This document shows, piece by piece, positions 184 to 21,184 of a stretch of DNA of 33,660 bases. Origin of the DNA: a virus (Duplodnaviria > Heunggongvirae > Uroviricota > Caudoviricetes); the IMG/VR virus record IMGVR_UViG_2913167280_000001; one strand, 5' to 3'. Both the position numbers and the translations under genes were made by a program. The notes under the pieces are model-generated. The model worked only from the letters and a program-made list of their open reading frames with translations, was not told where the DNA came from and searched no databases. Position 1 is the first letter of the stretch; the number at the start of each line of letters is the position of its first letter.

Positions 184-211
184 ATAATACGCTTTCCCGC
201 TACAGAGTCAA
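184..211 (-). promoter_or_regulatory. rRNA operon promoter P2
   Basis: Minus strand has -35 TTGACT (206-211) and -10 TATTAT (184-189) with a 16-bp spacer, matching rrn P2 architecture. Confidence 0.8.
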
Positions 212-301
212 GCATTTTTTTGCTTTTCTCTGCCGGAATTCTCAGGAGAATCCCGCTGACCCGGCGGCGTGTTTGCCGTTGTTCCGTGTCAGTGGTGGCG
301 C

Positions 302-352
302 ATTATAGGGAGTTATTCTGAGCTGACAAGAGGAAATTTAAAATAATTTATC
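302..352 (-). promoter_or_regulatory. rRNA operon promoter P1 with upstream AT-rich UP element
   Basis: Minus strand has -35 TTGTCA (324-329) and -10 TATAAT (302-307) with a 16-bp spacer, preceded by an AT-rich tract (AAATTATTTTAAATTTCCTC) typical of the rrn P1 UP element. Confidence 0.85.
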
Positions 353-407
353 GTTCGTTCAATTCTTAAGCAAAACACCTTAAAAACGACCATTTCCGGT
401 TGGAAAT

Positions 408-440
408 TAGACAAAAAGCGAGCCCCGAAGGACTCGCTTG
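408..440 (-). terminator. intrinsic terminator downstream of clpB
   Basis: GC-rich stem of about 9 bp with one mismatch, followed by a T run on the minus strand, directly after the clpB stop at 447-449. Confidence 0.6.
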
Positions 441-446
441 TCTTAT

Positions 447-3020: not shown

Positions 3021-3058
3021 AACTCCTCCCATAACGGATCAAAGTTGCTACTGGAGAT

Positions 3059-3087
3059 TAAATGAGGTCATCCCTCAATTATTCAAG
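3059..3087 (-). promoter_or_regulatory. sigma-32 heat-shock promoter for clpB
   Basis: Minus strand reads CTTGAA, then a 14-bp spacer, then CCTCATTTA, a close match to the sigma-32 consensus (CTTGAA / CCCCATNTA), about 40 bp upstream of the clpB ATG. Confidence 0.65.
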
Positions 3088-3149
3088 GTTATTGACCAGA
3101 TTAATGTGAAAAGAAAATCACGCGTACCGGATCGTCTTGATTCTTTAGG

Positions 3150-3881
3150 TTATATCAGCCAAATGAAACTTGCCATACGACCGGTGATCTTGTCGCGACG
3201 ATAAGAGAAGAAAGTCTCATTTTCCGTATATGTACAACGGTCGCCGCCGAAAATTTGCTCAACACCAACGCTCGCCAGACGCTGTCGGGCAAGCTGATAA
3301 ATATCCGCCAGATACTTATCACCATGCTGAATGAAAGCTGTACTCGCGTTGGCGTCTACTTCCATAAACGCCTCGCGAACCTCCGGCCCCACTTCAAACG
3401 CGCGTGGACCGATTGCCGGCCCCAACCAGGTAAGAATGTTTTCGGGCTTATCGGCAAAGCAGGAAACCGTCTCTTCCAGCACGCCTGCGCACAGTCCACG
3501 CCAGCCAGCATGGGCAGCCGCGACTTCCGTTCCTGCCCGATTGCAAAACAGCACAGGCAGGCAATCGGCTGTCATTACGGCACAAACCGTGCCGGGTGTG
3601 TTGCTATACGAGGCATCCGCCCGTTTTGAGGTATAAGGTTCGCCAGTAAGCTTAAGCACATCTTTACCGTGTACCTGCTCAAGCCAGACCGGTTTTGAAG
3701 GCAAATTACCCGCAGCAAAAAGCCGCTTGCGATTTTCCTCGACGTGCTCCGGGTTATCACCACAATGAGCACCGAGGTTGAGCGAGTCGTAGGGCGGCAA
3801 GCTCACGCCGCCGACACGGGTAGAGCTACAGGCCGCAACACCTTTTGGCAGCGGCCACTGCGGGACAATCAGCTTACTCAT
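3150..3881 (-). CDS. pgeF: YfiH/PgeF family protein, 243 aa
   Basis: Full-length ORF in the conserved clpB-yfiH-rluD context; 4-nt overlap with the rluD stop. Confidence 0.85.
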   Translation of the reverse strand: MSKLIVPQWPLPKGVAACSSTRVGGVSLPPYDSLNLGAHCGDNPEHVEENRKRLFAAGNLPSKPVWLEQVHGKDVLKLTGEPYTSKRADASYSNTPGTVCAVMTADCLPVLFCNRAGTEVAAAHAGWRGLCAGVLEETVSCFADKPENILTWLGPAIGPRAFEVGPEVREAFMEVDANASTAFIQHGDKYLADIYQLARQRLASVGVEQIFGGDRCTYTENETFFSYRRDKITGRMASFIWLI

Positions 3882-4858
3882 AACCAGTCCACTTCATCCT
3901 TATGCTCTTCGAAATCGGCGCGCATCACCTCAATCAGCTCCACCATATCTTGTGGAATAGGCGCATGCCATTCCATTTCAATGCCGGAGATCGGGTGATA
4001 AAGACGCAGCATGGTTGCATGAAGCGCCTGACGATCAAACTTACGCAGCGTGGAGATAAACGCTTCCGAAGCACCTTTTGGCGGACGCGGACGGCCACCA
4101 TAAACCGGATCGCCCACCAGCGGATGGGTTATATGGGCCATATGCACGCGGATCTGGTGCGTACGTCCAGTTTCCAGACGCAGCCGCAGACGCGTGTGCA
4201 CACGGAAGTGTTCCATAATGCGATAGTGAGTGACCGCCGGTTTGCCCATCGGATGCACCGCCATATGAGTTCGTTTGGTCGGATGGCGACTGATTGGCTC
4301 GTCCACCGTGCCACCAGCAGTCATATGACCAATTGCTACCGCTTCATACTCACGAGTAATTTCACGTCGTTGCAGAGATTCCACCAGGCGCGTCTGGGCT
4401 GGAACGGTTTTTGCCACAACCATGAGGCCAGTGGTGTCTTTATCCAGACGATGGACAATACCCGCACGCGGTACATCGGCAATGGGCGGATAGTAATGAA
4501 GCAACGCATTCAATACCGTGCCATCCGGGTTACCCGCGCCAGGATGTACCACCAGGTCGCGCGGTTTATTAATGACGATAATGTCTTCATCTTCATAGAC
4601 GATATCCAGCGGGATATCCTGCGGTTCAAAACGCGCTTCTTCTTCAATCTCGGCGTTGATGGCCACCAGCTCGCCACCTAATACTTTTTCTTTCGGCTTA
4701 TCACAAACTTTGCCGTTAACCAGCACGCGCTGGTTGAGGATCCATTCTTTTATTCGCGAACGTGAATAATCCGGGAACATTTCGGCTAAAGCCTGATCTA
4801 AGCGTTGACCGAGTTGGTTTTCGGACACTGTTGCAGTGAGTTCTACTCGTTGTGCCAT
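3878..4858 (-). CDS. rluD: 23S rRNA pseudouridine synthase RluD, 326 aa
   Basis: RluA-family catalytic motif HRLDKDTTG preceded by an S4-like N-terminal region; divergent from bamD as in E. coli. Confidence 0.93.
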   Translation of the reverse strand: MAQRVELTATVSENQLGQRLDQALAEMFPDYSRSRIKEWILNQRVLVNGKVCDKPKEKVLGGELVAINAEIEEEARFEPQDIPLDIVYEDEDIIVINKPRDLVVHPGAGNPDGTVLNALLHYYPPIADVPRAGIVHRLDKDTTGLMVVAKTVPAQTRLVESLQRREITREYEAVAIGHMTAGGTVDEPISRHPTKRTHMAVHPMGKPAVTHYRIMEHFRVHTRLRLRLETGRTHQIRVHMAHITHPLVGDPVYGGRPRPPKGASEAFISTLRKFDRQALHATMLRLYHPISGIEMEWHAPIPQDMVELIEVMRADFEEHKDEVDWL

Positions 4859-4992
4859 ATATACTGCTTCTTCGTTTATCGTTGGGGTTTTACGGCTTTG
4901 CCGTTTAATATAGTGTGCTATTGTAGCTGGTCTTAACCGGGAGCAGGAACAGAGAATCTCCCGTATTACATTTTGAGGAAAGTCAAAACGTC

Positions 4993-5730
4993 ATGACGCG
5001 CATGAAATATCTGGTGGCAGCCGCCACACTAAGCCTGTTTTTGGCGGGTTGCTCGGGGTCAAAGGAAGAAGTACCTGATAATCCGCCAAATGAAATTTAC
5101 GCGACTGCACAACAAAAGCTGCAGGACGGTAACTGGAGACAGGCAATAACGCAACTGGAAGCGTTAGATAATCGCTATCCGTTTGGTCCGTATTCGCAGC
5201 AGGTGCAGCTGGATCTCATCTACGCCTACTATAAAAACGCCGATCTGCCGTTAGCACAGGCTGCCATCGATCGTTTTATTCGCCTCAACCCGACCCATCC
5301 GAATATCGATTATGTCATGTACATGCGTGGCCTGACCAATATGGCGCTGGATGACAGTGCGCTGCAAGGGTTCTTTGGCGTTGACCGTAGCGATCGCGAT
5401 CCTCAACATGCTCGAGCTGCGTTTAGTGACTTTTCCAAACTGGTGCGCGGCTATCCAAACAGCCAGTACACCACTGATGCAACCAAACGTCTGGTGTTCC
5501 TGAAAGATCGTCTGGCGAAATATGAATACTCCGTTGCAGAGTACTACACCGAACGTGGCGCATGGGTTGCCGTCGTCAACCGCGTCGAAGGCATGCTGCG
5601 CGACTACCCGGATACCCAGGCTACGCGTGATGCGCTGCCGCTGATGGAAAATGCTTACCGCCAGATGCAGATGAACGCTCAGGCTGAAAAAGTCGCGAAA
5701 ATTATTGCCGCTAACAGCAGCAACACTTAA
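4993..5730 (+). CDS. bamD: outer membrane protein assembly factor BamD (lipoprotein), 245 aa
   Basis: Signal peptide ending in a lipobox (LFLAGCSG); full-length match to remembered E. coli BamD. Confidence 0.95.
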
Positions 5731-5748
5731 CAGGTGTGATATACGCAA

Positions 5749-5777
5749 AACGGCAGCCCTGGAGCTGTCGTTTTTTT
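5749..5777 (+). terminator. intrinsic terminator after bamD
   Basis: Stem AACGGCAGC / GCTGTCGTT followed by a run of 7 T. Confidence 0.7.
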
Positions 5778-5946
5778 ATTCGATTTGAACGCTAACTAAA
5801 GCGATTCAGTCGCGACTGATCCTATCAAATATGGCTCGCTTTGAGACATTCCTCAAGTAAAAAAACACCTCTTCCTGCGATTTCTCACAAAAAAACTTCG
5901 TTGACAAAAAGTGACAAAATTATGAGATTTTCATCACACATTTTGA

Positions 5947-6342
<396 letters not shown>

Positions 6343-6365
6343 TCCTTTATATTGAGTGTATCGCC

Positions 6366-6389
6366 AACGCGCCTTCGGGCGCGTTTTTT
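6366..6389 (+). terminator. intrinsic terminator after raiA
   Basis: Perfect 8-bp stem AACGCGCC / GGCGCGTT with a TTCG loop and a T run. Confidence 0.85.
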
Positions 6390-6465
6390 GTAAAGCTAAC
6401 AAATTGTTTCTATTAGCTTATTTCTTATAAACATCCACAAACTGTCCACATCAGTAATGATATAC

Positions 6466-6494: not shown

Positions 6495-7301
6495 TTATGT
6501 AGCCGAAATGGTTGTGGTGATGGTCCCCCGAAGCCGCTGCGCAGCTACCTCAAAATAATGATCACTGGTTTCTATACCAATAAATTTTCGCCCTGCTTTC
6601 AGTGCAGCCACACCCGTTGTCCCTGACCCCATAAAAGGATCAAGGACTGTTCCGCCACTATTCGCAGTTCTGACCAGTTCTGCCATAAGTTCTTCTGGTT
6701 TTCCGGTCGGGTGCATTTTCTTTGATGGGATAACCGGGAACGTCATGCAGCCGTCGAACGGTCCCGAAGGCGATTTATCTAAATGGCCTTTACTGCCCCA
6801 GACGATGTATTCGCACTGATGCCGGAAATACCCCGTATGGGGTGTTCGTGACCCCCTTCCTTTGTTCCACGCAATGATGCCGCGCCATGTGAAACCACTG
6901 GCCTGAAATGCATCAGTTAAAGCTGGCAGTTGTCGCCAGTCAGTAAATACCAGGGCATAACCGCCCGGCCTGACTGCGCGGTGTGCCTGTGCCATCCATA
7001 ATTGTGTCCAGTAAGCCCACGAACGGGCATCCATGTTTTCACCCGCAAACCCATCAAAGCGATGAAGGCTCTCGCCGTTCAGATATTTTGCGTGGCTGCC
7101 CTGGTTGGTGCGTCCGGCCTTGTGTGTCGCGCCCGAACTGTAAGGCGGGTCAGTGATTAAGGCATCAATACTTTCTGGCTCAATCAGCGGCAATATTTCC
7201 AGCGCATTCCCACGACAGAGCGTGGCATTGTCAGTCTGATAAACCTTAGTGTGTTCCGGTGTATGTGCTGGTTGGTGCTGGATTGTGATCCCCACGGTCA
7301 T
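6495..7301 (-). CDS. beta-class DNA methyltransferase (N6-adenine or N4-cytosine), 268 aa
   Basis: DPPY catalytic motif at residues 51-54 lies N-terminal to the AdoMet-binding motif DPFMGSGTT (beta-class order). ATG at 7299-7301 with a GAGGAG Shine-Dalgarno. Confidence 0.85.
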   Translation of the reverse strand: MTVGITIQHQPAHTPEHTKVYQTDNATLCRGNALEILPLIEPESIDALITDPPYSSGATHKAGRTNQGSHAKYLNGESLHRFDGFAGENMDARSWAYWTQLWMAQAHRAVRPGGYALVFTDWRQLPALTDAFQASGFTWRGIIAWNKGRGSRTPHTGYFRHQCEYIVWGSKGHLDKSPSGPFDGCMTFPVIPSKKMHPTGKPEELMAELVRTANSGGTVLDPFMGSGTTGVAALKAGRKFIGIETSDHYFEVAAQRLRGTITTTISAT

Positions 7302-7443
7302 AACTCCTCATGTGTGTGGGGTGCTCGATGGCTCTCGTTATCTGGTTAAGTGTTTTGCAGCGCGGACATTTTATTTCAATGTAGTGAAATGAGGCGCGGG
7401 CAAGTAGTTTGTTGCAATTTTTGCATCGTACATTTTGCGTCAT
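7246..7443 (-). CDS. com: Com-like zinc-finger protein (Mu com family), about 65 aa
   Basis: Sequence MTQNVRCKNCNKLL...IEIKCPRCK carries the Cys4 pattern remembered from Mu Com (RCKNCNKLL...IEIRCPRCK). It overlaps the first 56 nt of the downstream methyltransferase gene. ATG at 7441-7443; the track start at 7452 is GTG. Confidence 0.75.
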   Translation of the reverse strand: MTQNVRCKNCNKLLARASFHYIEIKCPRCKTLNQITRAIEHPTHMRSYDRGDHNPAPTSTYTGTH

Positions 7444-7488
7444 TTGCGGCACCTCTTGTGTGGTTACTGCTGCCGATATGATAACAAA

Positions 7489-8043: not shown

Positions 8044-8536
8044 GCATTCAGGTTTGCGAGATAGGGTGCCTTATCGACCTTAACCCTGGCAACCGATTGA
8101 CGGGGGATTGCTCCCCCGTCGCGGTTTCCTTACTGCTTACACTGTAAGAACGCCGCAAACTCCGCTCCCCAGAAGCTCATCCGTATCTCACACAGCGAAC
8201 CGTGTAGCATCCAGATGATGAGGATTGCCGTCACGCAGAACGTGATGGCTATAAGCGATTTTTGCGACATAGCACTTGCTCCTTTTTTTGCAAAGGCGCT
8301 AAGCTCTTGCCCGCTTATTGATTACGTTGTGAAACGCCCAGAGTTGAACATAAGGTTTAGTTGGGCCTTTTTACATCTGGCCTTCGTGTTTGCTGTCCAG
8401 CCATCAGTCGAAAGGCGTCCGCGTGAATTCTAGCCTGCTTTTTTTTCTTGCTTCAATACGTTGACTAATTTCAACACTCTGTTGTGCATATCCTGAACGC
8501 AGACATTATTCAGTCACGCATTTGATACATGCTTCC

Positions 8537-9038: not shown

Positions 9039-9064
9039 GAAAACGCACGACCGGAGCCGTGCGT
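9039..9064 (-). terminator. putative terminator at the end of the tail operon
   Basis: Stem ACGCACG / CGTGCGT followed on the minus strand by 4 T, about 40 nt after the stop of the last tail gene. Confidence 0.4.
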
Positions 9065-9102
9065 TGCGTGATGGGCGTTTATGGGGGTTTTATGCCCGGT
9101 GA

Positions 9103-10800
9103 TCAGGCGATAAGGTCACCGTATTTTTCGCGCAGGCTCGTAGCCTGTTTGGCGTCTGCGGCAAGTTCGCTGCTGTTTGTTGGTGCGCCGGTGTTGCTGT
9201 GGGTGTGGTTTGCAGTGTGTGTGGCCAGCAACTGAACCAGATCCAGAATATCAATCAACAACGTCAGCAGATTAAGTCCGGATTTTTCCCGTGAGCCACC
9301 GCGACCAATAAATACTGTCGGGGCTGTAAACTCCAGACCGCCGTCCGCCCGGCATGTTCTGCGGCCTCCCACGTTTTCAGTAAGGTCGCGCTCAATCGTG
9401 GATGTCGCCCCTTTGAGTTTAGTCAGCAAATCCTGCGCTACCATCTGGATATGCTCACCGGCTGCGATCGCATAATGACCAGTAGTAATGTGTTCTGTCT
9501 GGCCTGTCATCAGCTTGCTGGTTCCCAGAACGCTGGTTATGTCGTTTGCCTGTACTGTTGTTGTTCTGGTTGTTGTTGTGCGTTCTTCCTGATCGCTGTT
9601 AATGGTTCGCCTGGCTGAATGCTCCCTGATTTGCTGATCGGTTTCTCTGTGCCAGCTTCCGTCAGTCGTGACACGCTGAAACACTTCTGCGCGCTGTTGC
9701 TGCAGCTGTTCGCCGGGCTTTACATCAGGCAGGTTATGGCCAGCGGGTAAGATTTGCCTGATGACAGGTTTATCCGGTCGTCCTTCAATGTTGGATATTT
9801 CCACGATGGTGCCAGCCGGCGGGTAGGCAAAACATCCCGCCTCACTGCCAGCCATGGGGACGGGGAGCGGTACTGCCGGGTAAACGGGCGTATCGCTTTT
9901 ATCGTTGCCGTTCTCATCAAGCAACTGCACATCGACGGCGTAGCGTGGGCGGAAACTGTCGGCCACATCGCCCAGGGTGGCGGGCTCCGTTGGTGCAATG
10001 ACGCGCGCCAGCCGGGTATGTAGCGTACCGCTGGCCAGTTCCGGGAACTGTGTTTCCATTTGTCTGCGTAATGGTGATTTGGAAACAGGGCTGCCCGTGG
10101 CGGTAAGGCGCTCCCATGTCAGGGTCATTTTCTCGTTGTTGAGGGCTACACGGGTAATGCGCCCGGCTGGAAGGTTCACGCCCGGTCGCACAGTTTCCAT
10201 AAACATGATGTCGATGCTGTTTCCGCCGCTTTGCCCGAGTGTGTACTGTTGCGGAATATCCGGCATTGTAATGCTGGCAAATCGTGAATCAGCTGCACTT
10301 CCCACAAATACAGAACCGTCCGGCATAGGGTGCCAGACGTAATCGTTGATACTGAATGCTCGCCCCAGTTGGCTGAGCAGCTGTGCTCCGCTGCCGCTGT
10401 GGGTGATGTAGGGAGTTGGTATACTGGCATAATCCGCATCCGGAGTGATAAAAACGATACCGCTTTGTCGCCCCAGATTATCGAGTACCCCCCGCAACGT
10501 CGGGTGTTGCATGGAGCAAGGGAAATCAAAATCCAGCACAGCAGCCGCTTCACGAATAAAAAGGCGACGTGAGCCATTTTCAGCAGGTTGATCGCGCTCA
10601 ATGTAGCCGGAGAAATAGCGCCATGCTTCACCGTCACGGCCGAGATCAATTTGTACCATTGCGCCGGCAAGGCTGTGTTCGGGTGACAGATTGTTAACAG
10701 AAATGAAGCCACGACCGGCAGCATTCAGGGTAAGAACAAGGCTTATATCGGCAATTTCCACCCATTCGCCATTAATCATGCAGCGTTGTATCAATTTCAT
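9103..10800 (-). CDS. tail spike protein with a gpV/gp5-type OB-fold domain and an N-terminal extension (possible hub-spike fusion), 565 aa
   Basis: Residues about 306-350 (PVPMAGSEAGCFAYPPAGTIVEISNIEGRPDKPVIRQIL) resemble the conserved spike OB-fold motif; C-terminal HTANHTHS resembles the histidine tip motif of P2 gpV. Last gene of the tail operon, ATGA-coupled to the upstream gene. Confidence 0.6.
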   Translation of the reverse strand: MKLIQRCMINGEWVEIADISLVLTLNAAGRGFISVNNLSPEHSLAGAMVQIDLGRDGEAWRYFSGYIERDQPAENGSRRLFIREAAAVLDFDFPCSMQHPTLRGVLDNLGRQSGIVFITPDADYASIPTPYITHSGSGAQLLSQLGRAFSINDYVWHPMPDGSVFVGSAADSRFASITMPDIPQQYTLGQSGGNSIDIMFMETVRPGVNLPAGRITRVALNNEKMTLTWERLTATGSPVSKSPLRRQMETQFPELASGTLHTRLARVIAPTEPATLGDVADSFRPRYAVDVQLLDENGNDKSDTPVYPAVPLPVPMAGSEAGCFAYPPAGTIVEISNIEGRPDKPVIRQILPAGHNLPDVKPGEQLQQQRAEVFQRVTTDGSWHRETDQQIREHSARRTINSDQEERTTTTRTTTVQANDITSVLGTSKLMTGQTEHITTGHYAIAAGEHIQMVAQDLLTKLKGATSTIERDLTENVGGRRTCRADGGLEFTAPTVFIGRGGSREKSGLNLLTLLIDILDLVQLLATHTANHTHSNTGAPTNSSELAADAKQATSLREKYGDLIA

Positions 10801-11372
10801 GTTTTCCCTTCCTCTTTCACGCTCCCGATGCCAACAGCATCCAGACCAGAGCCAACGGCATCATTGATTTTTTTCCAGAACGAACTTTGCGTATTCATGC
10901 CTTTGTCTGGTGCCTGTTCGCTGCCATTCTGGGTCTGCTGTCTGGCGATGGTTTTCTGCGAACCGCTGCGTGCGGATGCTTTCTCTGGCACGCTTAATTT
11001 TTCCCTGAGAGTAAAGGTGATCTGCCAGTGCATTTTTCCCTGTTGTTCCGTGGCATCAATGCCACCAGAAAATACCCCCTGTCGCATATTGATTGCCTTC
11101 GCGGTAGCGTTAGCAATGCGATAGGTTTTTTTAGCACCGTTGCTTTCTGTTGCCTCCGCAAGCTGAAAAATACGGGTCAGAATAGCTTCATCGTTAAAAT
11201 CAATAACCCCCGACACGCGCAGCTCTTTAGCCTTGTTTCCCTGCTGGGCGCTCGTGGTGCTGGTTGACTGTCCGGACATATCTTTGTCCGGTAGTTGCAT
11301 GGTGGCGCTGACGGTGATGTTGCGCAGCAGAATGGCTTCTCCGTCAAGCGCAAGGACAATCATCTGGGTCAT
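10797..11372 (-). CDS. putative tail/baseplate protein, 191 aa (family uncertain)
   Basis: Translationally coupled between an unknown gene and the spike gene; no secure motif. Confidence 0.3.
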   Translation of the reverse strand: MTQMIVLALDGEAILLRNITVSATMQLPDKDMSGQSTSTTSAQQGNKAKELRVSGVIDFNDEAILTRIFQLAEATESNGAKKTYRIANATAKAINMRQGVFSGGIDATEQQGKMHWQITFTLREKLSVPEKASARSGSQKTIARQQTQNGSEQAPDKGMNTQSSFWKKINDAVGSGLDAVGIGSVKEEGKT

Positions 11373-12057
11373 GTAGTGCTTCCCTTAGTGATGAGAGATT
11401 ATCGCCGACGAACAGCATCACAGCTGTAAAAACCCACTCGGGGTGTGGGATGTTTTTTTGTATCAGCACTGCAGCCTGGCTAAGGGCTCCTTTGTAGCAA
11501 AAGCGCCACACCGGGCAAAATTTTTGCCGGAGTGCGGTCTGCTGATTAGCTATTTCCTGTAAGGCTTTATCTCTCGCATTCATGAACTGATGCAGTGATG
11601 ATGACAATGTTTCCGGTGATGTAGCGGCAGGAGTGGCTGCCTGTGCAATGGTTGCCGCCAGCGACATGCTGCGAGTGGTCTGTGTCGACAGCATTATCGG
11701 TTCTGGAAGTGATGTTGCCGGTCTGGCGGGGATTTGCATTCTGCTGATGGCCAGTGAAAGCTGGCTGGAGATCATGCGGGACATTCGTCCCACCTCCGGC
11801 AACGGAAATGCGCCTGAAAATTGCCTGGCGAGTGATAAAAACTCGCCAGCAGAAGGAGCGCAAAATAACAGCGCCACAATGTCCTTTTCCGTGTTTTCTT
11901 TCAGATAGGGTAAAAGTGCAGATACAGCATTTTCGGGGCTGAGATAACGCCCCGATGGTTTGATGTTTCCGGTATTTTCTGACCATGGATGAAGGCAAAC
12001 CACAGAGCATTTAATGTTCATGGCTGACGGGCGCAGAATTGCGTTTTCCCATTTCAT
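11344..12057 (-). CDS. hypothetical protein, 237 aa
   Basis: ATGA-coupled to the upstream fibre-chaperone gene; Ala/Ser/Thr-rich low-complexity central region; no recognisable motif. Confidence 0.4.
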   Translation of the reverse strand: MKWENAILRPSAMNIKCSVVCLHPWSENTGNIKPSGRYLSPENAVSALLPYLKENTEKDIVALLFCAPSAGEFLSLARQFSGAFPLPEVGRMSRMISSQLSLAISRMQIPARPATSLPEPIMLSTQTTRSMSLAATIAQAATPAATSPETLSSSLHQFMNARDKALQEIANQQTALRQKFCPVWRFCYKGALSQAAVLIQKNIPHPEWVFTAVMLFVGDNLSSLREALHDPDDCPCA

Positions 12058-12626
12058 TCTGACTCTCCAGCCTGAAAAGCGCGGATGTCGGCAAGATTAT
12101 TCAGACTATCCAGCACATCCTTCATCTGTCGCTGACGTCGATAAATTTCATCATTGCGGTTAACCTGCGCCTGCGCCATAGCTGTAGCCAGCCCCTCAAG
12201 CTCTGGCATCGACATCTTCACTTGCTGATTATCGGCGTCACCCCATGCCATAACGTCCCGCGCTGTGTCGGATTTTGATGCCATCACCACCGGATAAAGG
12301 CGGGTCAATGAGTCGGGGCCGGCGTTCCAGGTGCGACCGTTCCATTCGAACGTGAACGGCTGTGCTTCCTGTTCTGTGCGCCATGCCTCGATTTCCTGGC
12401 GTTTGGCGACTTTTGCTGCTTCCAGCATTTCAGGTGATACGGTGAACGGGGCAATCTTGCCCCATTTGCCGCTTTGCAGTTCCTGCCAGACGCGTTGGCC
12501 TGTCATTGCACTGTCTTCTGGTGTGGCTGTGTAGGGGACGGCTTCATCCATCCCTTCAAACAAAACTTCGCAGTCAATCGCACCGGATTCCAGATAGCGT
12601 GGATTCAGAATTTGTTGTATTTCCAT
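12054..12626 (-). CDS. putative tail fibre assembly/chaperone protein (second cassette), 190 aa
   Basis: Sits immediately downstream of tail fibre gene 2, by analogy with Mu U / P2 G; sequence differs from the first chaperone. Confidence 0.45.
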   Translation of the reverse strand: MEIQQILNPRYLESGAIDCEVLFEGMDEAVPYTATPEDSAMTGQRVWQELQSGKWGKIAPFTVSPEMLEAAKVAKRQEIEAWRTEQEAQPFTFEWNGRTWNAGPDSLTRLYPVVMASKSDTARDVMAWGDADNQQVKMSMPELEGLATAMAQAQVNRNDEIYRRQRQMKDVLDSLNNLADIRAFQAGESE

Positions 12627-12629
12627 TTT

Positions 12630-14681
12630 TTAGTTCACCCGCATAAATAAACCGACAAAGCATTCTGACGTGCCAAGTGTTGTTAAATGGCTGCCTGATA
12701 GTGCAATAAATGACCCTGCCTGTGGATATGAATTAGGAGACACAGTAATAAACTGTGGCGTGCTGGCATATGAGCCTGATGTGCTGCATTTCGCACTTAT
12801 TGTGACCGCCCCCAGTCTGGAGCCAGGTACAACTTGCCCCCTTTTCATTTTCCTGCTGCTGTCTGTGTCAGACTCACCAAAATAGGCCGCAAAAATCAGA
12901 CCTCCGACGCCCGGACTTCCCCATGCATTCCCTGTAACCGAGCGTAATAGATCTATTTGCGTCGCCGGGGACCACCACCCTTCAAGTTGAGGGCAGGCAG
13001 GATCTGCAATAAGACGGTTGTAATACAGCTCTCCACGAGCCCCCCGGTATGTAATGACTTTGTCATACACAGAGTGTGAGTTCGCATTGGCAGAAGAATA
13101 TGGTGACTCGATTTCTACTACACCATCAAATACTAATCCCGGAATTACCCTAATCGCTTCTGGATCTGTAATGACCTGTGTAACAAGATAGCGCCCTGGA
13201 GGCGTTTCCATGACCCACATAAGAAAATCCATGGGGCCATCCTTGCCTGTAAGCAGGTGGGGTGTTGAATAAAATGCTCCATAACCAAATGCGCCGGGTA
13301 ATGCCCCCCGACCTTCCGAGCGATCATAAATATCGCTTTGTAATGTCACTGTTCCGGAGTCTTCCAGCTCAAGCACCTTCCGCATATCTTCTGCTGTAGC
13401 TTGCGCCAGTAGTGAACGAGCCTTTTGCGTCACCTGGGCAAGTGATGCTTTCCCGTCCGTATTAAAGTACAGAAGGTTATCTGCCTGCGCTTTTAATTTG
13501 CTGATTGCCGTTAAAACATCGCTAAGCGGCTGTTTACCTGCCAGTGCGTTAGTGACCGTTGTTGCAAAGTTCGGGTCATTACCCAGCGCAGCTGCCAGCT
13601 CGTTCAGCGTGTCCAGAGCTTCCGGTGATGAGTCAACCAGCGCGGCAAGCAGTTTGCGGACAAACTCCGCATTGGCTATTTCAGTGCCTGCTGCGTCATC
13701 TGGCGGGGTTGGTGTTGTCGGTGCTCCGGTCAGTGCCGGGCTTTTCAGGGGAGCGCGTGCTTCAATCTGTGCGATGAGTGAAGCCTCATCAACCTTCAGA
13801 TTTTCCCAGCCAGCCAGATACCCCTGACCGCCGACGTAGCGATTGTAATAAATCTGACCATTAACACCGTAGTAAATTACTGCCTTATAGGCCCTGTCAT
13901 CGGTTGAGCTTTTAGGTTGTGGCCAGATAATTTCAATAACGCCGTTTGTCTGAATGCCTGGTACCACCACATTTGTGTCCGCAAATACGGTATAACGACC
14001 GGGTTTTGCCGTTTTTACCCAGCGGAGAAAATCGGCCTCTGTTTTAAACTCGGTCCTGTCGCCGCTGGAAAATACTTTCCCGAATCCAAACATGCCGGGA
14101 ATCGCCAGACGGCCTTCGGTGCGGTCGTAAAGGTCTGTTTGTACATCCATCGTTGCAGCAGTTTTCAACCCCAGATTGTCGCGGGATTCCTGTTGTGCTT
14201 CTTTCCCTTCTGCTGCAATTTCTGACAAACGGTTAGGGATTTTCAGCATTGATTTCAGCTCTGGATAAAGATCTATCTGCCAGCTCTGTGGAGGAACAGT
14301 AATTTGCGCAGCCTGAGCAATGCCGCTGTATATAATCGTGAAATTACGAATAAGTGACTCGCCTGTCACTTTTTGTCGAACAGGCGTTTTTATTACGCCG
14401 CATAGTGTTCCGCTGGCCTGATGGATGAGGCAAATCCAGTCATAGCTGAATGCACAGTCATCAGGAACAACCGCGCTACACACAATATTGTTCGGGCTTA
14501 ACTGGCCATAGGTCAGTTCATTCACGGTATATGTGATTTTTTCTTCCGGAACGGTATTATCTTCGTGCGTTGGTTCCCGCTCCATCAGGGCAAAAATAAT
14601 AGTGTCAGGGCGTGCAGGTAAATTACTGGCTGTGCATTCAGCAACCCACTTTTCAAATGCTTTCGTCAACAATGCGCTCAT
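12630..14681 (-). CDS. tail fibre protein 2 (P2 H / Mu S family), 683 aa
   Basis: N-terminal domain homologous to fibre 1 (PARPDT, NLIRTF/NLIRNF, WQID); central segment SPALTGAPTTP...ALVDSSPEALDTLNELAAALGNDPNFATT matches the conserved P2 H region; an internal duplicated domain (YDRxEGR...PGxFGxG, twice). Confidence 0.85.
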   Translation of the reverse strand: MSALLTKAFEKWVAECTASNLPARPDTIIFALMEREPTHEDNTVPEEKITYTVNELTYGQLSPNNIVCSAVVPDDCAFSYDWICLIHQASGTLCGVIKTPVRQKVTGESLIRNFTIIYSGIAQAAQITVPPQSWQIDLYPELKSMLKIPNRLSEIAAEGKEAQQESRDNLGLKTAATMDVQTDLYDRTEGRLAIPGMFGFGKVFSSGDRTEFKTEADFLRWVKTAKPGRYTVFADTNVVVPGIQTNGVIEIIWPQPKSSTDDRAYKAVIYYGVNGQIYYNRYVGGQGYLAGWENLKVDEASLIAQIEARAPLKSPALTGAPTTPTPPDDAAGTEIANAEFVRKLLAALVDSSPEALDTLNELAAALGNDPNFATTVTNALAGKQPLSDVLTAISKLKAQADNLLYFNTDGKASLAQVTQKARSLLAQATAEDMRKVLELEDSGTVTLQSDIYDRSEGRGALPGAFGYGAFYSTPHLLTGKDGPMDFLMWVMETPPGRYLVTQVITDPEAIRVIPGLVFDGVVEIESPYSSANANSHSVYDKVITYRGARGELYYNRLIADPACPQLEGWWSPATQIDLLRSVTGNAWGSPGVGGLIFAAYFGESDTDSSRKMKRGQVVPGSRLGAVTISAKCSTSGSYASTPQFITVSPNSYPQAGSFIALSGSHLTTLGTSECFVGLFMRVN

Positions 14682-14687
14682 TACTTC

Positions 14688-15239
14688 TTAATTCTCGCTA
14701 ATGTTCTGCGGTAATTCTGGCCATACAATCGCGGCATACGATGCTTTATCTGTAACCTGGCTGAATGTCATCTCCCGTAACGTTTTTGTATAAATACGGC
14801 AGGCTTTCAATTTCCCCCTGTCTTCGTCGCTGATTAATCCCAGCAGCAGGTCTTTTTCCCATTCGCTGGTCATGATGCTGGCCTGTTTTAACAGTGCATC
14901 ACGCTCATCTTCCGCTTTAAGTTTGTAGTCGAAGACAAATTTATCGTCGCGGTAAAACCAGTAACCAGGCACGGTAATACGGCGGTTAGCGGTAATATCA
15001 GGAACTTCAATAACACTGGCGTTACGGGGTTCAATGCCTGTCACATCCTTACCGACCCACACCACGCGCCCGTCTCCGGTGTAAACCATTTTTATGGTGT
15101 CACTGGCAAAGTTCTTCTGTTCTTCATACCAGTTTTTGCCGTCTTCCGAAAAAAGCCAGGTAACACCATATTGTTTTGTCAGCTGATATTGTTCCGCGGT
15201 TTTCGGGTTACCCGCAGTAATATTTTTTAAATGCAACAT
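14688..15239 (-). CDS. tail fibre assembly protein (first cassette), 183 aa
   Basis: Immediately downstream of fibre 1; size and C-terminal WPELP-type motif typical of the Tfa/U/G chaperone family. Confidence 0.7.
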   Translation of the reverse strand: MLHLKNITAGNPKTAEQYQLTKQYGVTWLFSEDGKNWYEEQKNFASDTIKMVYTGDGRVVWVGKDVTGIEPRNASVIEVPDITANRRITVPGYWFYRDDKFVFDYKLKAEDERDALLKQASIMTSEWEKDLLLGLISDEDRGKLKACRIYTKTLREMTFSQVTDKASYAAIVWPELPQNISEN

Positions 15240-15241
15240 TG

Positions 15242-17574: not shown

Positions 17575-18755
17575 TCGCTCACCTCCACAGTAAGGGATTC
17601 CAGACGAGGAACAGCCAGATCACTGAGAATATCTGGAAGAGAAAATGTAACCGACTCCACCTGTGGAAATACCTGGTGGATCTCTTCGCCCAGTCTGGAC
17701 ATGCTGAAACGGCTATACGGCCATGTTTTCTGAACGTCATAATCGCTGTTTTCTCGAAATGCACAGCGAACCAGATTTTCCACATTGCGCAATAACGTCT
17801 GAATTTCCTCATCGCTGAGGTTCAGCGTTGCATATAACCAGAGTGTCACGGTCAGGGTGTGGCGTGTTTCAGGCATGGAAAAACAGCGCAGATCATCACC
17901 GTGTCCGTGATGACCTTCATCGTTAATGAATGCGTTTACTGCATCAACGAACGGTTCGGATGCGATGCCGGTATCCAGCAGAATGTAAGCATTTGCTGTG
18001 CCGGGGCCGCGTGGTGCGTCATGCAGAAAATAGATGCGGTCGGCACTGACGCCGGCAACGCCGGCAATTAATCCCCGATAAACTGCATCGGTGTGATAAG
18101 CGCCGGCAAGATTAAACTGATTGCGAACACGATCACGCAGCTCGTCATCGCTTTCTTCGTTGGCACCCGGTGTGGTCAGCCAGTTTTCATCGTTCTCAAC
18201 ACCGGCAATACCATCAATCGCCACTGGAAGGATGCGGTAATATCCCGGCGCAAGGTTAAAGCCGGCTCCGGCCTGTTCCGCAGAAACATCGATGTTCATG
18301 CTGAGTGTTCCTGCCGGAATAACGGTATCCCTGACAACGGTCAGCGTATAAATCACGCCGTTAATGCGTTCTGTCTGAATCTGCGTACCGGCCGGCACGG
18401 TAACTGCGCGATCAATGTCGTTCTTGGTGAAACGAATCACGCCGGCTGCGTGCGTGGCGGCCTTGCGTTGCAGGTTTACCGCCCAGGCAAAAACATCAAC
18501 GAATACACCGCTGGCATCGGCCAGAAACAGGTTTTTCATCACCACATTAACCAGCGCATCTTTCAGCCACATCACGGGTTTTGTGGTGATGGCTGTAATC
18601 AGTCGCCAGAACGGCGACATGCGGGATGTGTTGGTGATAAGCCCTTCGTCTTTGACAATGGCTTCAAATTCAGCGCGTGCCTGTTCTTCGGTTACCGGCA
18701 TGCCGTTATCAGCCAGAATGCGCTCGTAATCTGCGGTGGGTTTGCCGTTAATCAT
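17571..18755 (-). CDS. baseplate protein (P2 gpJ / T4 gp6-like), about 394 aa
   Basis: Size and position after the W-like gene and before the I-like gene and fibres; probable ATG at 18753-18755 (the track start at 18758 is TTG). Confidence 0.65.
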   Translation of the reverse strand: MINGKPTADYERILADNGMPVTEEQARAEFEAIVKDEGLITNTSRMSPFWRLITAITTKPVMWLKDALVNVVMKNLFLADASGVFVDVFAWAVNLQRKAATHAAGVIRFTKNDIDRAVTVPAGTQIQTERINGVIYTLTVVRDTVIPAGTLSMNIDVSAEQAGAGFNLAPGYYRILPVAIDGIAGVENDENWLTTPGANEESDDELRDRVRNQFNLAGAYHTDAVYRGLIAGVAGVSADRIYFLHDAPRGPGTANAYILLDTGIASEPFVDAVNAFINDEGHHGHGDDLRCFSMPETRHTLTVTLWLYATLNLSDEEIQTLLRNVENLVRCAFRENSDYDVQKTWPYSRFSMSRLGEEIHQVFPQVESVTFSLPDILSDLAVPRLESLTVEVSE

Positions 18756-19098
18756 CAAGAGATACCGTAAAAGTCAGGGGTTCAAAAAAATCTTCGGTGT
18801 GGGCGCTAATCAGCAGGCGACCAGAAAGCGGGGTTTCTTCTGTCACACTGACCGTGCCGGGTGTGATGCGCTCATCATCTTCAATCAGCAGTGTCATCTG
18901 CATCATGATGTCGGCACGAAGTGTCGGGCTTTTTTCAGCCAGCAGGCGCGTTGCCAGTCCGCTCTCAATGATGGCGTGCTGGCAGTCCTGGGCAATACTT
19001 TCCCTGTTGTTGCATAACACCGGCTCACTGGCGCTGTTCAGCGTGAGATTGCGGCCGGTGATGAGCAAATCAATGTAAAGCGGTTTATCAGTATGCAT
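18748..19098 (-). CDS. putative baseplate wedge protein (gpW/gp25-like), about 116 aa
   Basis: Internal ATG at 19096-19098 of the 162-aa track ORF gives a 116-aa product immediately after the tape measure stop; size and position match P2 gpW. The longer ORF overlaps the tape measure gene by 149 nt. Confidence 0.45.
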   Translation of the reverse strand: MHTDKPLYIDLLITGRNLTLNSASEPVLCNNRESIAQDCQHAIIESGLATRLLAEKSPTLRADIMMQMTLLIEDDERITPGTVSVTEETPLSGRLLISAHTEDFFEPLTFTVSLDD

Positions 19099-21184
19099 GC
19101 AGCTCCATCCACTCGTTAAGACGGGCAGGGGATGGATCCTGCACATTGACGTTAACCACACGACGGGAGTTGTCGATGGTGGTCTGGTTTTCGCTGTTGT
19201 TCTGCATCTCTGCCGCAATGCCGCCCGGTCCCGCACTGATGGCTTTGCCGCCGGTTAATACGGAGCCTTCGCCACTTCCTGTGCTTTCCGGTGTGTCGAT
19301 ATTGACGCCGGGGATCATGTTGAGCTTGCCTACAATCCAGCCCCATGAATCACTGAAGGACTGTTTCACCAGTTCCCAGAGGTTACTGAAAATATTCAGG
19401 ATGCCGCCCGCGAGATCCTTCAGGGCATCCAGTGGTGAATGCGTGGAAAAATAGTTAACCAGTGCATTCCAGCCGTCCTGGATTGTGTTCCATGCATTGC
19501 CGAACCATGCCCCCATACTGCCGACCATTTCAGCCACCCACTGAAAGGCGGCGGTATCCATCAGCGCGGCTTTAATCTCATCCCAGCGGGTGATCAGGAA
19601 ATAAATGCCCACGCCCAGCGCAGCCAGTGCCAGGATGATTAATGTGATGGGGCTGAAAAGTAACTGTGTTGCAATTGCGGCTCCGCTGGTGACTGCGGTG
19701 TAGATTTTCATTGCTATGCCGGCGGCACCCAGCGCAACAGAATAAAGCCAGAGTCCGGCGCGCTGTAATTTCAGCAGCGCCAGCTGAATTTTTGCTTTGA
19801 CGTTGTATGTTCCCATAGCAATGGACATGGCCAGATACAGCGCCCTGACCGTTCGGGCAACTACAGTGAATGCCCACATGGTAGCCGTCAGTGTGCGTTT
19901 CAGCAGAATGAGAATCTTCAGCGGCGCAACAGCTGCCAGCCAGACCAGCCGCAGTCCTGTCCAGACAAACTTCGCCACACCCACCATAATGTTGACAACA
20001 GCACCCACTGCGGCAATGCCCAGCAGGGCGGCAGACAGTAAACCAATGGCCCGTGTGATATTGGGATACAGACGTAACCAGGCAACAAAGGATTTACCGC
20101 CTTCGTTGCTTTTCTGGATAAACGGGTACAGAACAGGCAGCAACTGCGTGCCAATTTCGATGCGAATGCCGTTAATAATTGCAGCGGCCTGTTCCCATGG
20201 ATCAGCCATGGCCTGTGCCATTTCGACAGCCTTATCCATACCTTTGATATTGCCCAGCGTGGCGATATTCTTTTCAAGTCCGCCAATGTCTGCATTGAGT
20301 AATTTAATCATGGCCACAGCTTCATCGGAGCCAAAGGCGCTTTTCAGCAAATCGGAATCAGCCACTTTTGACAGATCACCAAATTTACCCCTGATAAGTT
20401 TCATGATCTCGACAACACTTTTCATCGTGCCGTCTTTATTCACGAAATTAAGCCCCAGCTTTTTCTGGGCGCTGCCTACTGCGGCAAGAAATGCCTTGTA
20501 CTTTGTCCCGGCCTCGCTGCCACTCATGGTGGCCTGCAGCTGTCCCAGCACGGCGAACTGTTCAGCCGCATCAATACCGGCCGCTTTTGCACTGGCACCC
20601 AGCGTGGTGAACGCCGCTGACATGTTATCGCCGGTTGTTTTAAACATTTGCACGGCGGTGGCGGTTTGCCCGGCGACCTGCTCCACCCATTTGCTTTTTC
20701 CCATGGCATCAGCCTGGTCTTTAAAGATGCCGTACATGGTGCCCATGTAGGCGGTAATGGTCTGGCTGCTGGATTTGGTTGCTGCTGCCACCGTTGCTGA
20801 TGCGGTGGTGAAGCGGGACAGCTCATCGTCAGTTAATCCGGCAATGGCTGACTGGATGTCGTAAGAAGCACGCACAAAATCCTGCGCAGCCCCGCCGTAT
20901 TCCATAGTGAAATCAACGGCGGCGCGGCTGAGTTTACGCAATCCGGACTCTGCGACGCCCAGTGATTTCACCTCACCGAGCGCCCTGTCCATTTCAATGG
21001 CTGGCATCAGTGCCCCCTGAATGGCTGCACCCACTCCCCAGAGCGCAGCGCCTCCGGTAGCAATGTCCCGAAAGGCTCCCCGACTTGTTGCAGCAAATCC
21101 CTGAACCTGTCGCCCGGCCGCACGCAACGGCCTTGTCAGGCGGTCTGTCAGTTCAAGAAGTAATTCAAGGCGCTGTTGTGACAT
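19088..21184 (-). CDS. tail tape measure protein, 698 aa
   Basis: Long Ala/Gly-rich protein with central hydrophobic segments, directly downstream of the frameshifted chaperone; its ATG overlaps the stop of the chaperone -1 frame (TAATG). Confidence 0.85.
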   Translation of the reverse strand: MSQQRLELLLELTDRLTRPLRAAGRQVQGFAATSRGAFRDIATGGAALWGVGAAIQGALMPAIEMDRALGEVKSLGVAESGLRKLSRAAVDFTMEYGGAAQDFVRASYDIQSAIAGLTDDELSRFTTASATVAAATKSSSQTITAYMGTMYGIFKDQADAMGKSKWVEQVAGQTATAVQMFKTTGDNMSAAFTTLGASAKAAGIDAAEQFAVLGQLQATMSGSEAGTKYKAFLAAVGSAQKKLGLNFVNKDGTMKSVVEIMKLIRGKFGDLSKVADSDLLKSAFGSDEAVAMIKLLNADIGGLEKNIATLGNIKGMDKAVEMAQAMADPWEQAAAIINGIRIEIGTQLLPVLYPFIQKSNEGGKSFVAWLRLYPNITRAIGLLSAALLGIAAVGAVVNIMVGVAKFVWTGLRLVWLAAVAPLKILILLKRTLTATMWAFTVVARTVRALYLAMSIAMGTYNVKAKIQLALLKLQRAGLWLYSVALGAAGIAMKIYTAVTSGAAIATQLLFSPITLIILALAALGVGIYFLITRWDEIKAALMDTAAFQWVAEMVGSMGAWFGNAWNTIQDGWNALVNYFSTHSPLDALKDLAGGILNIFSNLWELVKQSFSDSWGWIVGKLNMIPGVNIDTPESTGSGEGSVLTGGKAISAGPGGIAAEMQNNSENQTTIDNSRRVVNVNVQDPSPARLNEWMELHAY

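What the first reader, a model, noticed from the sequence alone, without database searches (positions are those of the whole stretch)
9103..10800. Spike protein with a roughly 300-aa N-terminal extension at the end of the tail operon; no separate gpV-like gene
The OB-fold spike motif lies at residues about 306-350 and the histidine tip motif (HTANHTHS) at the C-terminus, so the first 300 residues are an extra domain N-terminal to the spike. No separate gpV-like gene sits between the tape measure and W-like genes, where P2 and Mu keep theirs. This may be a hub-spike fusion, similar in architecture to VgrG. The baseplate genes W, J, I and the fibres lie between the tape measure and this gene, a different order from both P2 and Mu.
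Basis: partly seen in the sequence, partly recalled or inferred. Interest (0 to 1): 0.5.

Follow-up and report, generated by a model that had tools for sequence, protein, structure and literature searches.

The report
Fused baseplate hub and tail spike
The last gene of this E. coli prophage's tail operon encodes one protein that joins the baseplate hub to the membrane-piercing spike, as in VgrG; the same fusion has already been noted for phage HP1, so this is a new member of a known kind.

Summary
ORF 9103-10800 (- strand, 565 aa) is intact. It is the last gene of the tail operon of an HP1-like (Peduoviridae) prophage in E. coli, and it is the homologue of HP1 orf35 (42% identity; phrog_2258, E 6e-232).

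- The whole chain is collinear with the fused hub-spikes VgrG, Afp8, Pvc8 and AlgoCIS (Foldseek E 1e-15 to 4e-19).

In other relatives (phages ACA1, SMHB1, phi3 and Vibrio 1.202.O) the two halves are separate, overlapping genes. The junction maps to residues 232-250. Fused forms cluster almost as one clade.

No other hub or spike gene lies in the window. The upstream ORF34-like protein has a tube-initiator fold.

The fusion is not new. A 2023 paper supplement already states that HP1 fuses its gpD and gpV homologues.

Modest points of interest are the compact 240-aa hub, a helix-HxH-helix tip with no solved relative, and the split/fused polymorphism within one family.

The parts
9103..10800 (-). 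Complete hub-spike gene (565 aa), homologue of HP1 orf35 / K139 orf39
   Evidence: ORF list and translation. phrog_2258 full-length match, E 6e-232. 42% identity to HP1 orf35 and 47% to ESSI-2/SW5-type phage 'baseplate protein'. A 99%-identity cluster has 956 member sequences.
10087..10800 (-). Residues 1-238: compact baseplate hub domain (gp27 / Mu gp44 / P2 gpD fold)
10051..10086 (-). Residues 239-250: linker at the fusion junction
   Evidence: In split relatives the hub ORF ends and the spike ORF starts here (alignment A1). Stand-alone spikes begin at query residues 242-251. phrog_4011 (a 315-aa family) starts at residue 243.
9745..10050 (-). Residues 251-352: N-terminal helices and OB-fold of the spike module
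9271..9744 (-). Residues 353-510: extended beta region, taken to be the trimeric beta-helix shaft of the spike
9106..9270 (-). Residues 511-565: tip module, Leu-rich helix (511-530), HxH (532-534), helix (543-563)
   Evidence: AF2 secondary structure, pLDDT about 90. The family profile A5 has G499, H532 and H534 invariant (these are G5, H38 and H40 in the numbering of the 71-residue fragment used for A5). No PDB or Pfam relative for the module.
9199..9207 (-). Codons for H532-T533-H534, the putative metal-binding HxH tip motif
   Evidence: His is conserved at both positions in 74 of 79 sequences. P2 gpV ends in ...LHTHKHPGDSGG.... One relative hits PF18946 'GpV Apex motif' at 3e-5.
9042..9065 (-). 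Terminator-like hairpin followed by UUUU, the end of the late operon
   Evidence: RNA fold dG -17 kcal/mol, z -3.83, 0 of 200 shuffles as stable. Sequence. The simple scanner did not flag it.
10797..11372 (-). ORF34-like gene (191 aa): tube-initiator / 'ripcord' (gpU-like) partner of the hub
11344..12057 (-). ORF33-like gene (237 aa), function unknown, syntenic with HP1 orf33
   Evidence: phrog_1677 and phrog_31292. No Pfam or NCBIfam hit. No similarity to the hub profile. The ACA1 homologue gp46 was detected in virions by mass spectrometry, per the annotation note and the supplement.
18748..19098 (-). W-like (DUF2590) sheath-initiator gene directly after the tape measure; no hub or spike gene lies between them
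   Evidence: PF10761, E 1.2e-35, aligned from ORF residue 55. The tape measure ORF ends at 19088.
19088..21184 (-). Tape measure protein
   Evidence: PF10145, E 7.5e-29; phrog_28.

Best explanation
The gene encodes the central baseplate protein of an HP1-like temperate myovirus. It is a single polypeptide in which a compact gp27/gp44/gpD-type hub domain (residues 1-238) is joined by a 12-residue linker to a gpV/gp45-type spike. The spike consists of an OB-fold, a beta-helix shaft and an HxH tip.

By analogy with solved baseplates, three copies would form the hub ring that adapts the three-fold spike to the six-fold tube. The ORF34-like tube initiator would sit on that ring. The W-J-I wedges, the tape measure and the tube/sheath would assemble around and on it.

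On sheath contraction the tube would drive the spike tip through the outer membrane. The tip is probably stiffened by a metal ion held by H532 and H534 of the three chains. Because hub and spike are covalently linked, they would leave the tube end as one unit, as VgrG does.

Shown here by computation: the intact, conserved ORF; the two folds and their order; the split homologues and the junction; the tube-initiator fold of the neighbouring gene; and the absence of any other hub or spike gene in the window.

Inferred and not tested: trimer formation, placement in the baseplate, metal binding, membrane piercing and release.
For: Family membership and synteny:
- Full-length match to the HP1 orf35 family, with HP1 gene order.

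Structure:
- AF2 model pLDDT 91.5, pTM 0.73.
- Foldseek: the top 15 hits are fused hub-spike proteins (AlgoCIS, VgrG, Pvc8, Anabaena CIS, Afp8), E 4e-19 to 6e-14 over 560-710 alignment columns.

The two halves as separate genes:
- They are separate, adjacent, overlapping genes in phages ACA1, Vibrio 1.202.O, SMHB1 and phi3.
- Among the best 150 cluster representatives at 50% identity, 14 are fused, 20 are hub-only (225-244 aa) and about 100 are spike-only.
- Fused forms are nearly monophyletic in a neighbour-joining tree of the hub domain.

Other evidence:
- HxH is conserved in 74 of 79 sequences and matches the P2 gpV HTH motif.
- The ORF34-like protein has a tube-initiator fold.
- No Phage_GPD or Phage_base_V hit in any other window ORF.
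- Literature: HHpred links ACA1 gp48 to P2 gpD and gp49 to gpV 3QR8, and states that HP1 fuses the two. ACA1 gp48 and gp49 were detected in virions by mass spectrometry (PMC10612066 supplement).
Against: - Sequence methods do not place the N-domain in the hub family. The window protein has no Pfam or NCBIfam hit, and only 1 of 27 relatives touches PF05954, at E 0.17. hhalign against an 11-sequence gpD alignment gives a collinear 140-column alignment but only E 0.015 and probability 3%.
- The hub is about 140 aa shorter than gpD or gp44, so part of the canonical hub is missing or supplied by another protein. ORF33-like is uncharacterised.
- All structural evidence rests on a predicted monomer. 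The shaft at 450-510 has lower confidence, and the trimer was not modelled.
- The tip (helix-HxH-helix) differs from the gpV apex and has no solved relative.
- Post-translational cleavage at the linker cannot be excluded.
Confidence: 0.85

Rival explanations
1. The protein is translated as a fusion but cleaved at the 239-250 linker during assembly. In the virion, hub and spike would then be separate chains, as in P2 and Mu, and the fusion would serve only to give equal amounts and co-assembly.
For: The linker (ERLTATGSPVSKSPL) is poorly conserved, lies exactly where relatives have a gene boundary, and has slightly lower pLDDT, 88-90. There is a precedent from general knowledge: T4 gp5 is cleaved during maturation.
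Against: No protease site or prohead-type protease acting on tail proteins is evident. VgrG, Afp8 and Pvc8 work uncleaved. No data in the window bear on this point.
Confidence: 0.08
2. The N-terminal domain is an accessory module (secretin-N0-like or cell-wall-binding) attached to the spike, and the true hub is another protein such as ORF33-like or ORF34-like.
Confidence: 0.04
3. The long ORF is an artefact: a sequencing or assembly frameshift, or a pseudogene-like accidental fusion of two overlapping genes, with no functional fused product.
For: Split relatives have the spike ORF in the -1 frame with a 10-28 nt overlap, so a 1-nt indel could fuse them. Public databases contain clear chimeras and one frameshifted copy (P0143) of this family.
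Against: The fused form is conserved at 530-612 aa across HP1, K139, phiO18P, ESSI-2-type phages and many enterobacterial prophages with 30-99% identity. It includes functional, plaque-forming phages. It carries a dedicated linker and forms a near-monophyletic clade. The 99% cluster has 956 members.
Confidence: 0.02
4. The gene belongs to a T6SS or a tailocin/eCIS (a true VgrG or Afp8) rather than to a phage.
For: The best full-length structural matches are VgrG and eCIS spikes. There are weak TIGR01646 and TIGR03361 hits.
Against: The cluster carries terminase, portal, scaffold, capsid, head-completion, lysis and tail-completion genes in HP1 order. Homologues are in isolated phages. VgrG model scores are 16-19 bits against cut-offs of 122-186. 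No Hcp, TssB/C or PAAR was found among the scanned ORFs.
Confidence: 0.01

Closest known systems
HP1 orf35 and its homologues (K139 orf39, phiO18P gp46, 'baseplate protein' of ESSI-2, SW5, SI7 and vB_YenM_324; phrog_2258)
   Same: Full-length homology (42% identity to HP1, 47% to ESSI-2/SW5-type). Same position as the last gene of the late operon after orf33 and orf34. Same 4-nt ATGA overlap with orf34. Same fused hub-linker-spike layout and HxH tip.
   Different: Below 50% identity to any isolated phage in the collection. The C-terminal shaft (residues about 440-500) is more divergent: tblastn to HP1 stops at residue 441. RefSeq annotates the E. coli copies only as 'hypothetical protein'.
P2 gpD (hub) plus gpV (spike); R2 pyocin PA0628 plus PA0616
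   Different: In P2 they are two genes in two operons, with V ahead of W and D last. Here they are one chain. The hub is 240 aa here against 387 aa. There is no significant sequence similarity. The tip here is helix-HxH-helix with a 31-residue tail after the motif, whereas gpV ends 12 residues after HTHKH.
Mu gp44 (hub) plus gp45 (spike), and the MuSo2 and Neisseria 43-kDa tail proteins
   Different: They are separate genes. From general knowledge (not checked here), Mu places them between the tape measure/gp43 and the W-like gene. Identity is 12-16%. The Mu hub is about 140 aa longer.
VgrG (T6SS) and the eCIS spikes Afp8, Pvc8 and AlgoCIS Alg8
   Different: This gene sits in a phage genome with head genes. 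It does not pass the VgrG sequence models. The hub is shorter. It carries its own HxH tip rather than a blunt beta-helix end capped by PAAR. It has no effector domain.
Split hub and spike genes of HP1-subgroup phages (ACA1 gp48/gp49, C5a, SMHB1 PP_00048/49, Vibrio 1.202.O gp40/41, Pseudomonas phi3)
   Same: Clear sequence homologues of the two halves (28-37% identity). Same synteny after the orf33 and orf34 homologues.
   Different: They are two ORFs that overlap by 10-28 nt, with the spike in the -1 frame and no linker. Some carry other tip modules, such as the Cys-rich tip in Vibrio 1.202.O gp41.
Cyanophage Pam3 hub gp19 (229 aa)
   Different: It is a separate gene from the Pam3 spike gp20, and the structural match is weaker than to Mu gp44.

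Membership tests
HP1 orf35 family (phrog_2258) | Full-length sequence match to the family profile | tested here: met
   E 6.3e-232, residues 1-565 against profile 1-544 of 544. tblastn matches HP1, K139, phiO18P and ESSI-2-type phages.
HP1 orf35 family (phrog_2258) | Last gene of the late operon, directly after the orf33 and orf34 homologues | tested here: met
   PF25759 HP1_ORF34 gene upstream with a 4-nt overlap, orf33-like gene before it, and a terminator-like hairpin downstream.
Baseplate hub gp27 / Mu gp44 / P2 gpD (Pfam Phage_GPD PF05954) | gp27-type hub fold | tested here: met
Baseplate hub gp27 / Mu gp44 / P2 gpD (Pfam Phage_GPD PF05954) | Significant match to the family's sequence model | tested here: not met
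   No PF05954 hit for the window protein or its N-domain. Only 1 of 27 relatives hits, at E 0.17.
Baseplate hub gp27 / Mu gp44 / P2 gpD (Pfam Phage_GPD PF05954) | Profile-profile similarity to gpD homologues | tested here: inconclusive
   hhalign of the N-domain profile A3 against the 11-sequence gpD alignment A6 gives a collinear alignment of 140 columns with 21% identity, E 0.015 and probability 3%. Against a single gpD sequence there is nothing. The literature reports an HHpred match of ACA1 gp48 to P2 gpD at 10% identity.
Baseplate hub gp27 / Mu gp44 / P2 gpD (Pfam Phage_GPD PF05954) | Full-size hub of about 380 aa | tested here: not met
   The domain ends at about residue 238. Stand-alone homologues are 225-244 aa. 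gpD is 387 aa.
Baseplate hub gp27 / Mu gp44 / P2 gpD (Pfam Phage_GPD PF05954) | Trimeric ring under the tube that adapts three-fold to six-fold symmetry | not testable with these tools
Central spike P2 gpV / Mu gp45 / T4 gp5 (Pfam Phage_base_V PF04717) | OB-fold domain | tested here: met
Central spike P2 gpV / Mu gp45 / T4 gp5 (Pfam Phage_base_V PF04717) | Trimeric beta-helix shaft after the OB-fold | tested here: inconclusive
Central spike P2 gpV / Mu gp45 / T4 gp5 (Pfam Phage_base_V PF04717) | HxH apex motif | tested here: met
   H532-T-H534 is conserved in 74 of 79 sequences, and P2 gpV has HTH. PF18946 Apex is hit by one relative only, at 3e-5, and not by the window protein.
Central spike P2 gpV / Mu gp45 / T4 gp5 (Pfam Phage_base_V PF04717) | Iron (or other metal) bound at the tip | not testable with these tools
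   Needs a purified trimer and metal analysis or a structure.
VgrG / Afp8 / Pvc8 fused hub-spikes | Hub, OB-fold and beta-helix collinear in one chain | tested here: met
VgrG / Afp8 / Pvc8 fused hub-spikes | Passes the VgrG sequence models (TIGR01646, TIGR03361) | tested here: not met
   19.2 and 16.1 bits against cut-offs of 121.8 and 186.35, and only the OB motif aligns.
VgrG / Afp8 / Pvc8 fused hub-spikes | Encoded in a T6SS or head-less eCIS/tailocin locus | tested here: not met
   The locus has terminase, portal, scaffold, capsid, head-completion and lysis genes. Homologues occur in isolated phages.

The most novel reading that the evidence does not exclude
The spike ends in a tip type that has not been described structurally. 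A Leu-rich helix (511-530) would run to the apex, the invariant HxH (532-534) would hold a metal at the turn, and a second helix (543-563) would fold back. The trimer would then carry a six-helix-bundle point rather than the beta-structured gpV apex.

In addition, the HP1 subgroup holds both split and fused forms that differ by a frame change at a short gene overlap. It would therefore be a living example of how VgrG-like hub-spike fusions arise.
Probability: 0.3. Interest if true: 0.45.

Novelty: new member of a known kind. Interest (0 to 1): 0.25.

Why it matters
- **Annotation gap.** RefSeq labels this gene and its two upstream partners as 'hypothetical protein' in the E. coli genomes that carry the prophage (66 of 5,426 complete genomes). 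Pfam has no model for the hub domain. The result supplies an evidence-based annotation: hub-spike fusion, tube initiator, and an orf33-like protein of unknown function.
- **Minimal contractile tail.** A tail can work with a 240-aa hub covalently tied to its spike.
- **Evolution of VgrG-type proteins.** Close relatives keep the two modules as separate overlapping genes. The family is therefore a convenient natural system for asking what fusion of hub and spike changes in assembly and release.
- **Overall significance.** None of this overturns current understanding. Fused hub-spikes are well known, and the HP1 fusion has been noted in print.

Tried and rejected
- **Sequence searches for the hub domain.** All of these found nothing significant, so the hub assignment rests on fold and context, not sequence:
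  - Pfam and NCBIfam on the whole protein and on residues 1-245;
  - Pfam on 27 relatives;
  - PDB sequence search with the protein and with the N-domain profile;
  - hhalign against a single P2 gpD sequence.
- **hhalign against a purpose-built gpD alignment.** I built it from 11 phages. The alignment is collinear but not significant.
- **Programmed frameshifting in split relatives.** I checked whether they might make a fused product by a programmed -1 frameshift. The spike ORF is always in the -1 frame, but the overlap holds no slippery heptamer and looks like ordinary overlapping start/stop coupling. Rejected.
- **Internal start at M256.** I checked whether the fused gene has an internal start that would yield a free spike. 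There is no Shine-Dalgarno-like sequence upstream, and the Met is not conserved in phiO18P. Rejected.
- **ORF33-like as a hidden hub.** It shows no similarity to the hub profile and has no family hits.
- **PDB and Pfam searches with a profile of the C-terminal tip module.** No relative was found.
- **Long or odd database homologues** (P0126, P0137, P0176, P0205). These are chimeras with fibre, replication or capsid fragments and are probably misassemblies. They are not new architectures.
- **Literature searches.** Searches for an HP1-type baseplate structure or a fuller description of the fusion found only the ACA1 paper.

Full report
**What is in the sequence**

The window holds E. coli chromosomal genes at its left end (clpB, yfiH, rluD, bamD), followed by a prophage whose late genes run on the - strand. 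In reading order these are:
- small terminase, capsid and scaffold, with large terminase and portal on the + strand;
- head completion, gpR-like and gpS-like tail completion;
- sheath (DUF2586), tube (Phage_HP1_Orf24), holin, M15 peptidase and tail chaperone;
- tape measure (19088-21184), a W-like DUF2590 gene, Baseplate_J and Tail_P2_I;
- two tail-fibre and assembly pairs;
- an orf33-like gene (11344-12057), an HP1_ORF34 gene (10797-11372), and the 565-aa ORF 9103-10800.

This is the gene order of Haemophilus phage HP1, orf23 to orf35, so the element belongs to the HP1 subgroup of Peduoviridae. Closely related DNA (90-99% identity) occurs in 66 of 5,426 complete E. coli genomes. There the three last genes are annotated 'hypothetical protein'.

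**Check of the observation**

The coordinates, strand and length are correct.
- The OB-fold signal is real but weak by sequence: PF04717 at residues 310-347 (E 0.019, below the gathering score) and TIGR01646 at 314-363 (E 5e-4, far below its cut-off).
- HTANHTHS is at residues 528-535. Only H532 and H534 are conserved, in 74 of 79 family sequences, and 31 residues follow the motif.
- No other ORF in the window hits a hub or spike family, and nothing lies between the tape measure and the W-like gene.
- A hairpin of -17 kcal/mol (z -3.8) followed by UUUU lies about 40 nt downstream of the stop codon. This fits the end of the operon, as annotated for K139.

Two details need correcting. First, the N-terminal module is about 240 residues, not 300. 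Second, P2 keeps V in front of W in a different operon from its tape measure, so the 'between tape measure and W' position applies to Mu only. The Mu gene order is from general knowledge and was not checked here.

**What the protein is**

It matches phrog_2258 'baseplate protein' end to end (E 6e-232). A second family of 315-aa proteins (phrog_4011) matches only residues 243-559.

tblastn finds homologues in 75 phage records, all from the HP1 subgroup: ESSI-2, SW5 and SI7 types at 45-47% identity, HP1 and HP2 at 42%, phiO18P at 39% and K139 at 32%.

In Pseudoalteromonas phage ACA1, Vibrio phage 1.202.O, Salinivibrio phage SMHB1 and Pseudomonas phage phi3 the match falls into two adjacent ORFs. 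One is a protein of about 230 aa that corresponds to residues 1-238. The other is a protein of 231-323 aa that starts at about residue 250. The phi3 hub ORF is not annotated in that record.

An exhaustive search of 1.84 billion cluster representatives gave 583 relatives. Among the best 150:
- 14 are fused (470-612 aa);
- 20 are hub-only (225-244 aa, matching query residues 1-231);
- about 100 are spike-only, and those that are complete at their N-terminus (51) start at query residue 242-253.

The protein is therefore a fusion of two modules that exist independently. The junction is at residues 232-250, filled here by the linker ERLTATGSPVSKSPL. In a neighbour-joining tree of the hub module the fused forms cluster together. 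The exceptions are one fused outlier (P0148) and one hub-only sequence inside the fused clade (P0143), which looks like a frameshifted copy. This suggests mainly one fusion event, but the tree has no support values.

**Test of the hub-spike idea**

An AlphaFold2 model built on a 99-sequence alignment of fused, hub-only and spike-only relatives is confident (mean pLDDT 91.5, pTM 0.73).

Foldseek, which scores the whole chain, ranks the fused hub-spikes first: AlgoCIS 7aef_q (3.7e-19), VgrG (9jg9, 8gra, 4mtk, 4uhv), Pvc8, the Anabaena and Streptomyces CIS spikes, and Afp8.

At the level of sequence the hub cannot be placed:
- there are no Pfam, NCBIfam or PDB-sequence hits;
- a profile-profile comparison with a gpD alignment I assembled from 11 phages gives a sensible collinear alignment but only E 0.015.

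**Is there another hub?**

ORF33-like has no family hits and no similarity to the hub profile, and its fold was not predicted.

**How it most likely works**

This section is inferred from the solved Mu, pyocin R2, Pam3, AFP/PVC and T6SS structures listed above.
- Three chains form the hub ring and the axial spike.
- The ORF34-like hexamer and the tape measure dock on the ring.
- The W-J-I wedges assemble around it.
- The tube and sheath grow from it.
- Contraction drives the spike through the outer membrane. The tip is probably stiffened by a metal ion bound to H532 and H534 of the three chains, as iron is in P2 gpV (general knowledge of the gpV structure, PDB entry 3QR8).
- Because hub and spike are one chain, they must leave the tube end together.

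Cleavage at the linker is a minor rival that only protein data can settle.

**Comparison with what is known, and novelty**

Fused hub-spikes are textbook for T6SS (VgrG) and eCIS (Afp8, Pvc8). For this very family, the supplement of the ACA1 genome paper (PMC10612066) lists gp48 as the gpD homologue ('cell puncturing device mounting domain') and gp49 as the gpV homologue. [quoted passage not shown]

The finding is therefore a new, poorly annotated member of a known kind. What this analysis adds:
- fold-level confirmation;
- the exact junction;
- the tube-initiator assignment of ORF34-like;
- the distribution of split and fused forms;
- the observation that the tip is a helix-HxH-helix module with no relative in the PDB or Pfam, whereas a few relatives carry other tip modules.

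**Verdict**

Novelty is low: a new member of a known kind. Interest is 0.25.

Noticed in passing
window 9106-9270 (-), residues 511-565: The spike tip is predicted as a Leu-rich helix, an invariant HxH and a second helix. This differs from the short beta-type apex of P2 gpV. A family profile of this module finds nothing in the PDB or Pfam, apart from one relative that hits PF18946 'GpV Apex motif'. A few relatives carry other tips, for example the Cys-rich ...ICPFMGKPH... in Vibrio phage 1.202.O gp41, or a gpV-like ...RQHTHTEVEPGSG....
   Followed up: partly
L002 3986-5361; L007 2989-4397; L003 3818-5448; L005 3001-4655: In the split relatives the hub and spike ORFs overlap by 10, 10, 28 and 16 nt, and the spike is always in the -1 frame. 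No slippery heptamer lies in the overlap, so this looks like ordinary coupled translation. A 1-nt indel here would create the fused form.
   Followed up: yes
L005 3001-3699 (Pseudomonas phage phi3, KT887559.1): A 232-aa hub ORF homologous to residues 1-238 is not annotated in the phi3 record. The ACA1 paper notes the same omission in phage C5a.
   Followed up: partly
window 11344-12057 (-): The ORF33-like gene (237 aa) has no Pfam or NCBIfam hit and only PHROGs of unknown function. Its ACA1 homologue is a virion protein by mass spectrometry. Its role in the baseplate is open.
   Followed up: partly
window 6495-7452 (-): A Com-like zinc-finger ORF (7246-7452, ...RCKNCNKLL...CPRCK...) overlaps the start of an N6/N4 DNA methyltransferase gene (6495-7301). 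The layout recalls Mu com-mom translational control, but with a different enzyme. In the related prophage, RefSeq calls the pair 'Com family DNA-binding transcriptional regulator' and 'DNA-methyltransferase'.
   Followed up: no
window 8130-8270 (-): A 46-aa Hok/Gef-like toxin ORF (...SLCEIR...EFAAFL...) sits between the methylase module and the end of the tail operon. The equivalent ORF is annotated as a Hok/Gef family protein in the related E. coli prophage (L009).
   Followed up: no
window 12054-16942 (-): There are two consecutive tail-fibre plus assembly-protein pairs, where HP1 has one. Parts of them are 80-95% identical in DNA to fibre genes of unrelated phages (phiP27, Rac-SA53 and an Actinobacillus phage record), which indicates mosaic exchange of host-range modules.
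   Followed up: no
window 32607-33050 (-): An ORF matching Plasmid_stab_B (E 1.6e-23) lies in the early region of an integrated prophage. The adjacent ORF that runs off the window end was not examined.
   Followed up: no
proteins P0126, P0137, P0176, P0205, P0143 (database relatives): Several public 'proteins' join pieces of this gene to tail-fibre, gpA replication or capsid fragments. P0143 is a hub-only sequence inside the fused clade whose C-terminus looks frameshifted. They are probably assembly or sequencing artefacts and should not be read as new architectures.
   Followed up: partly
L009 (NZ_LR778147.1) compared with window 1-6400: The near-identical prophage (98.6% over 3.6 kb) sits next to flk/yfcJ/fabB in strain SC418 but next to bamD/rluD/clpB in this window. 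Related prophages therefore use different chromosomal sites. No tRNA gene is present in the window.
   Followed up: no
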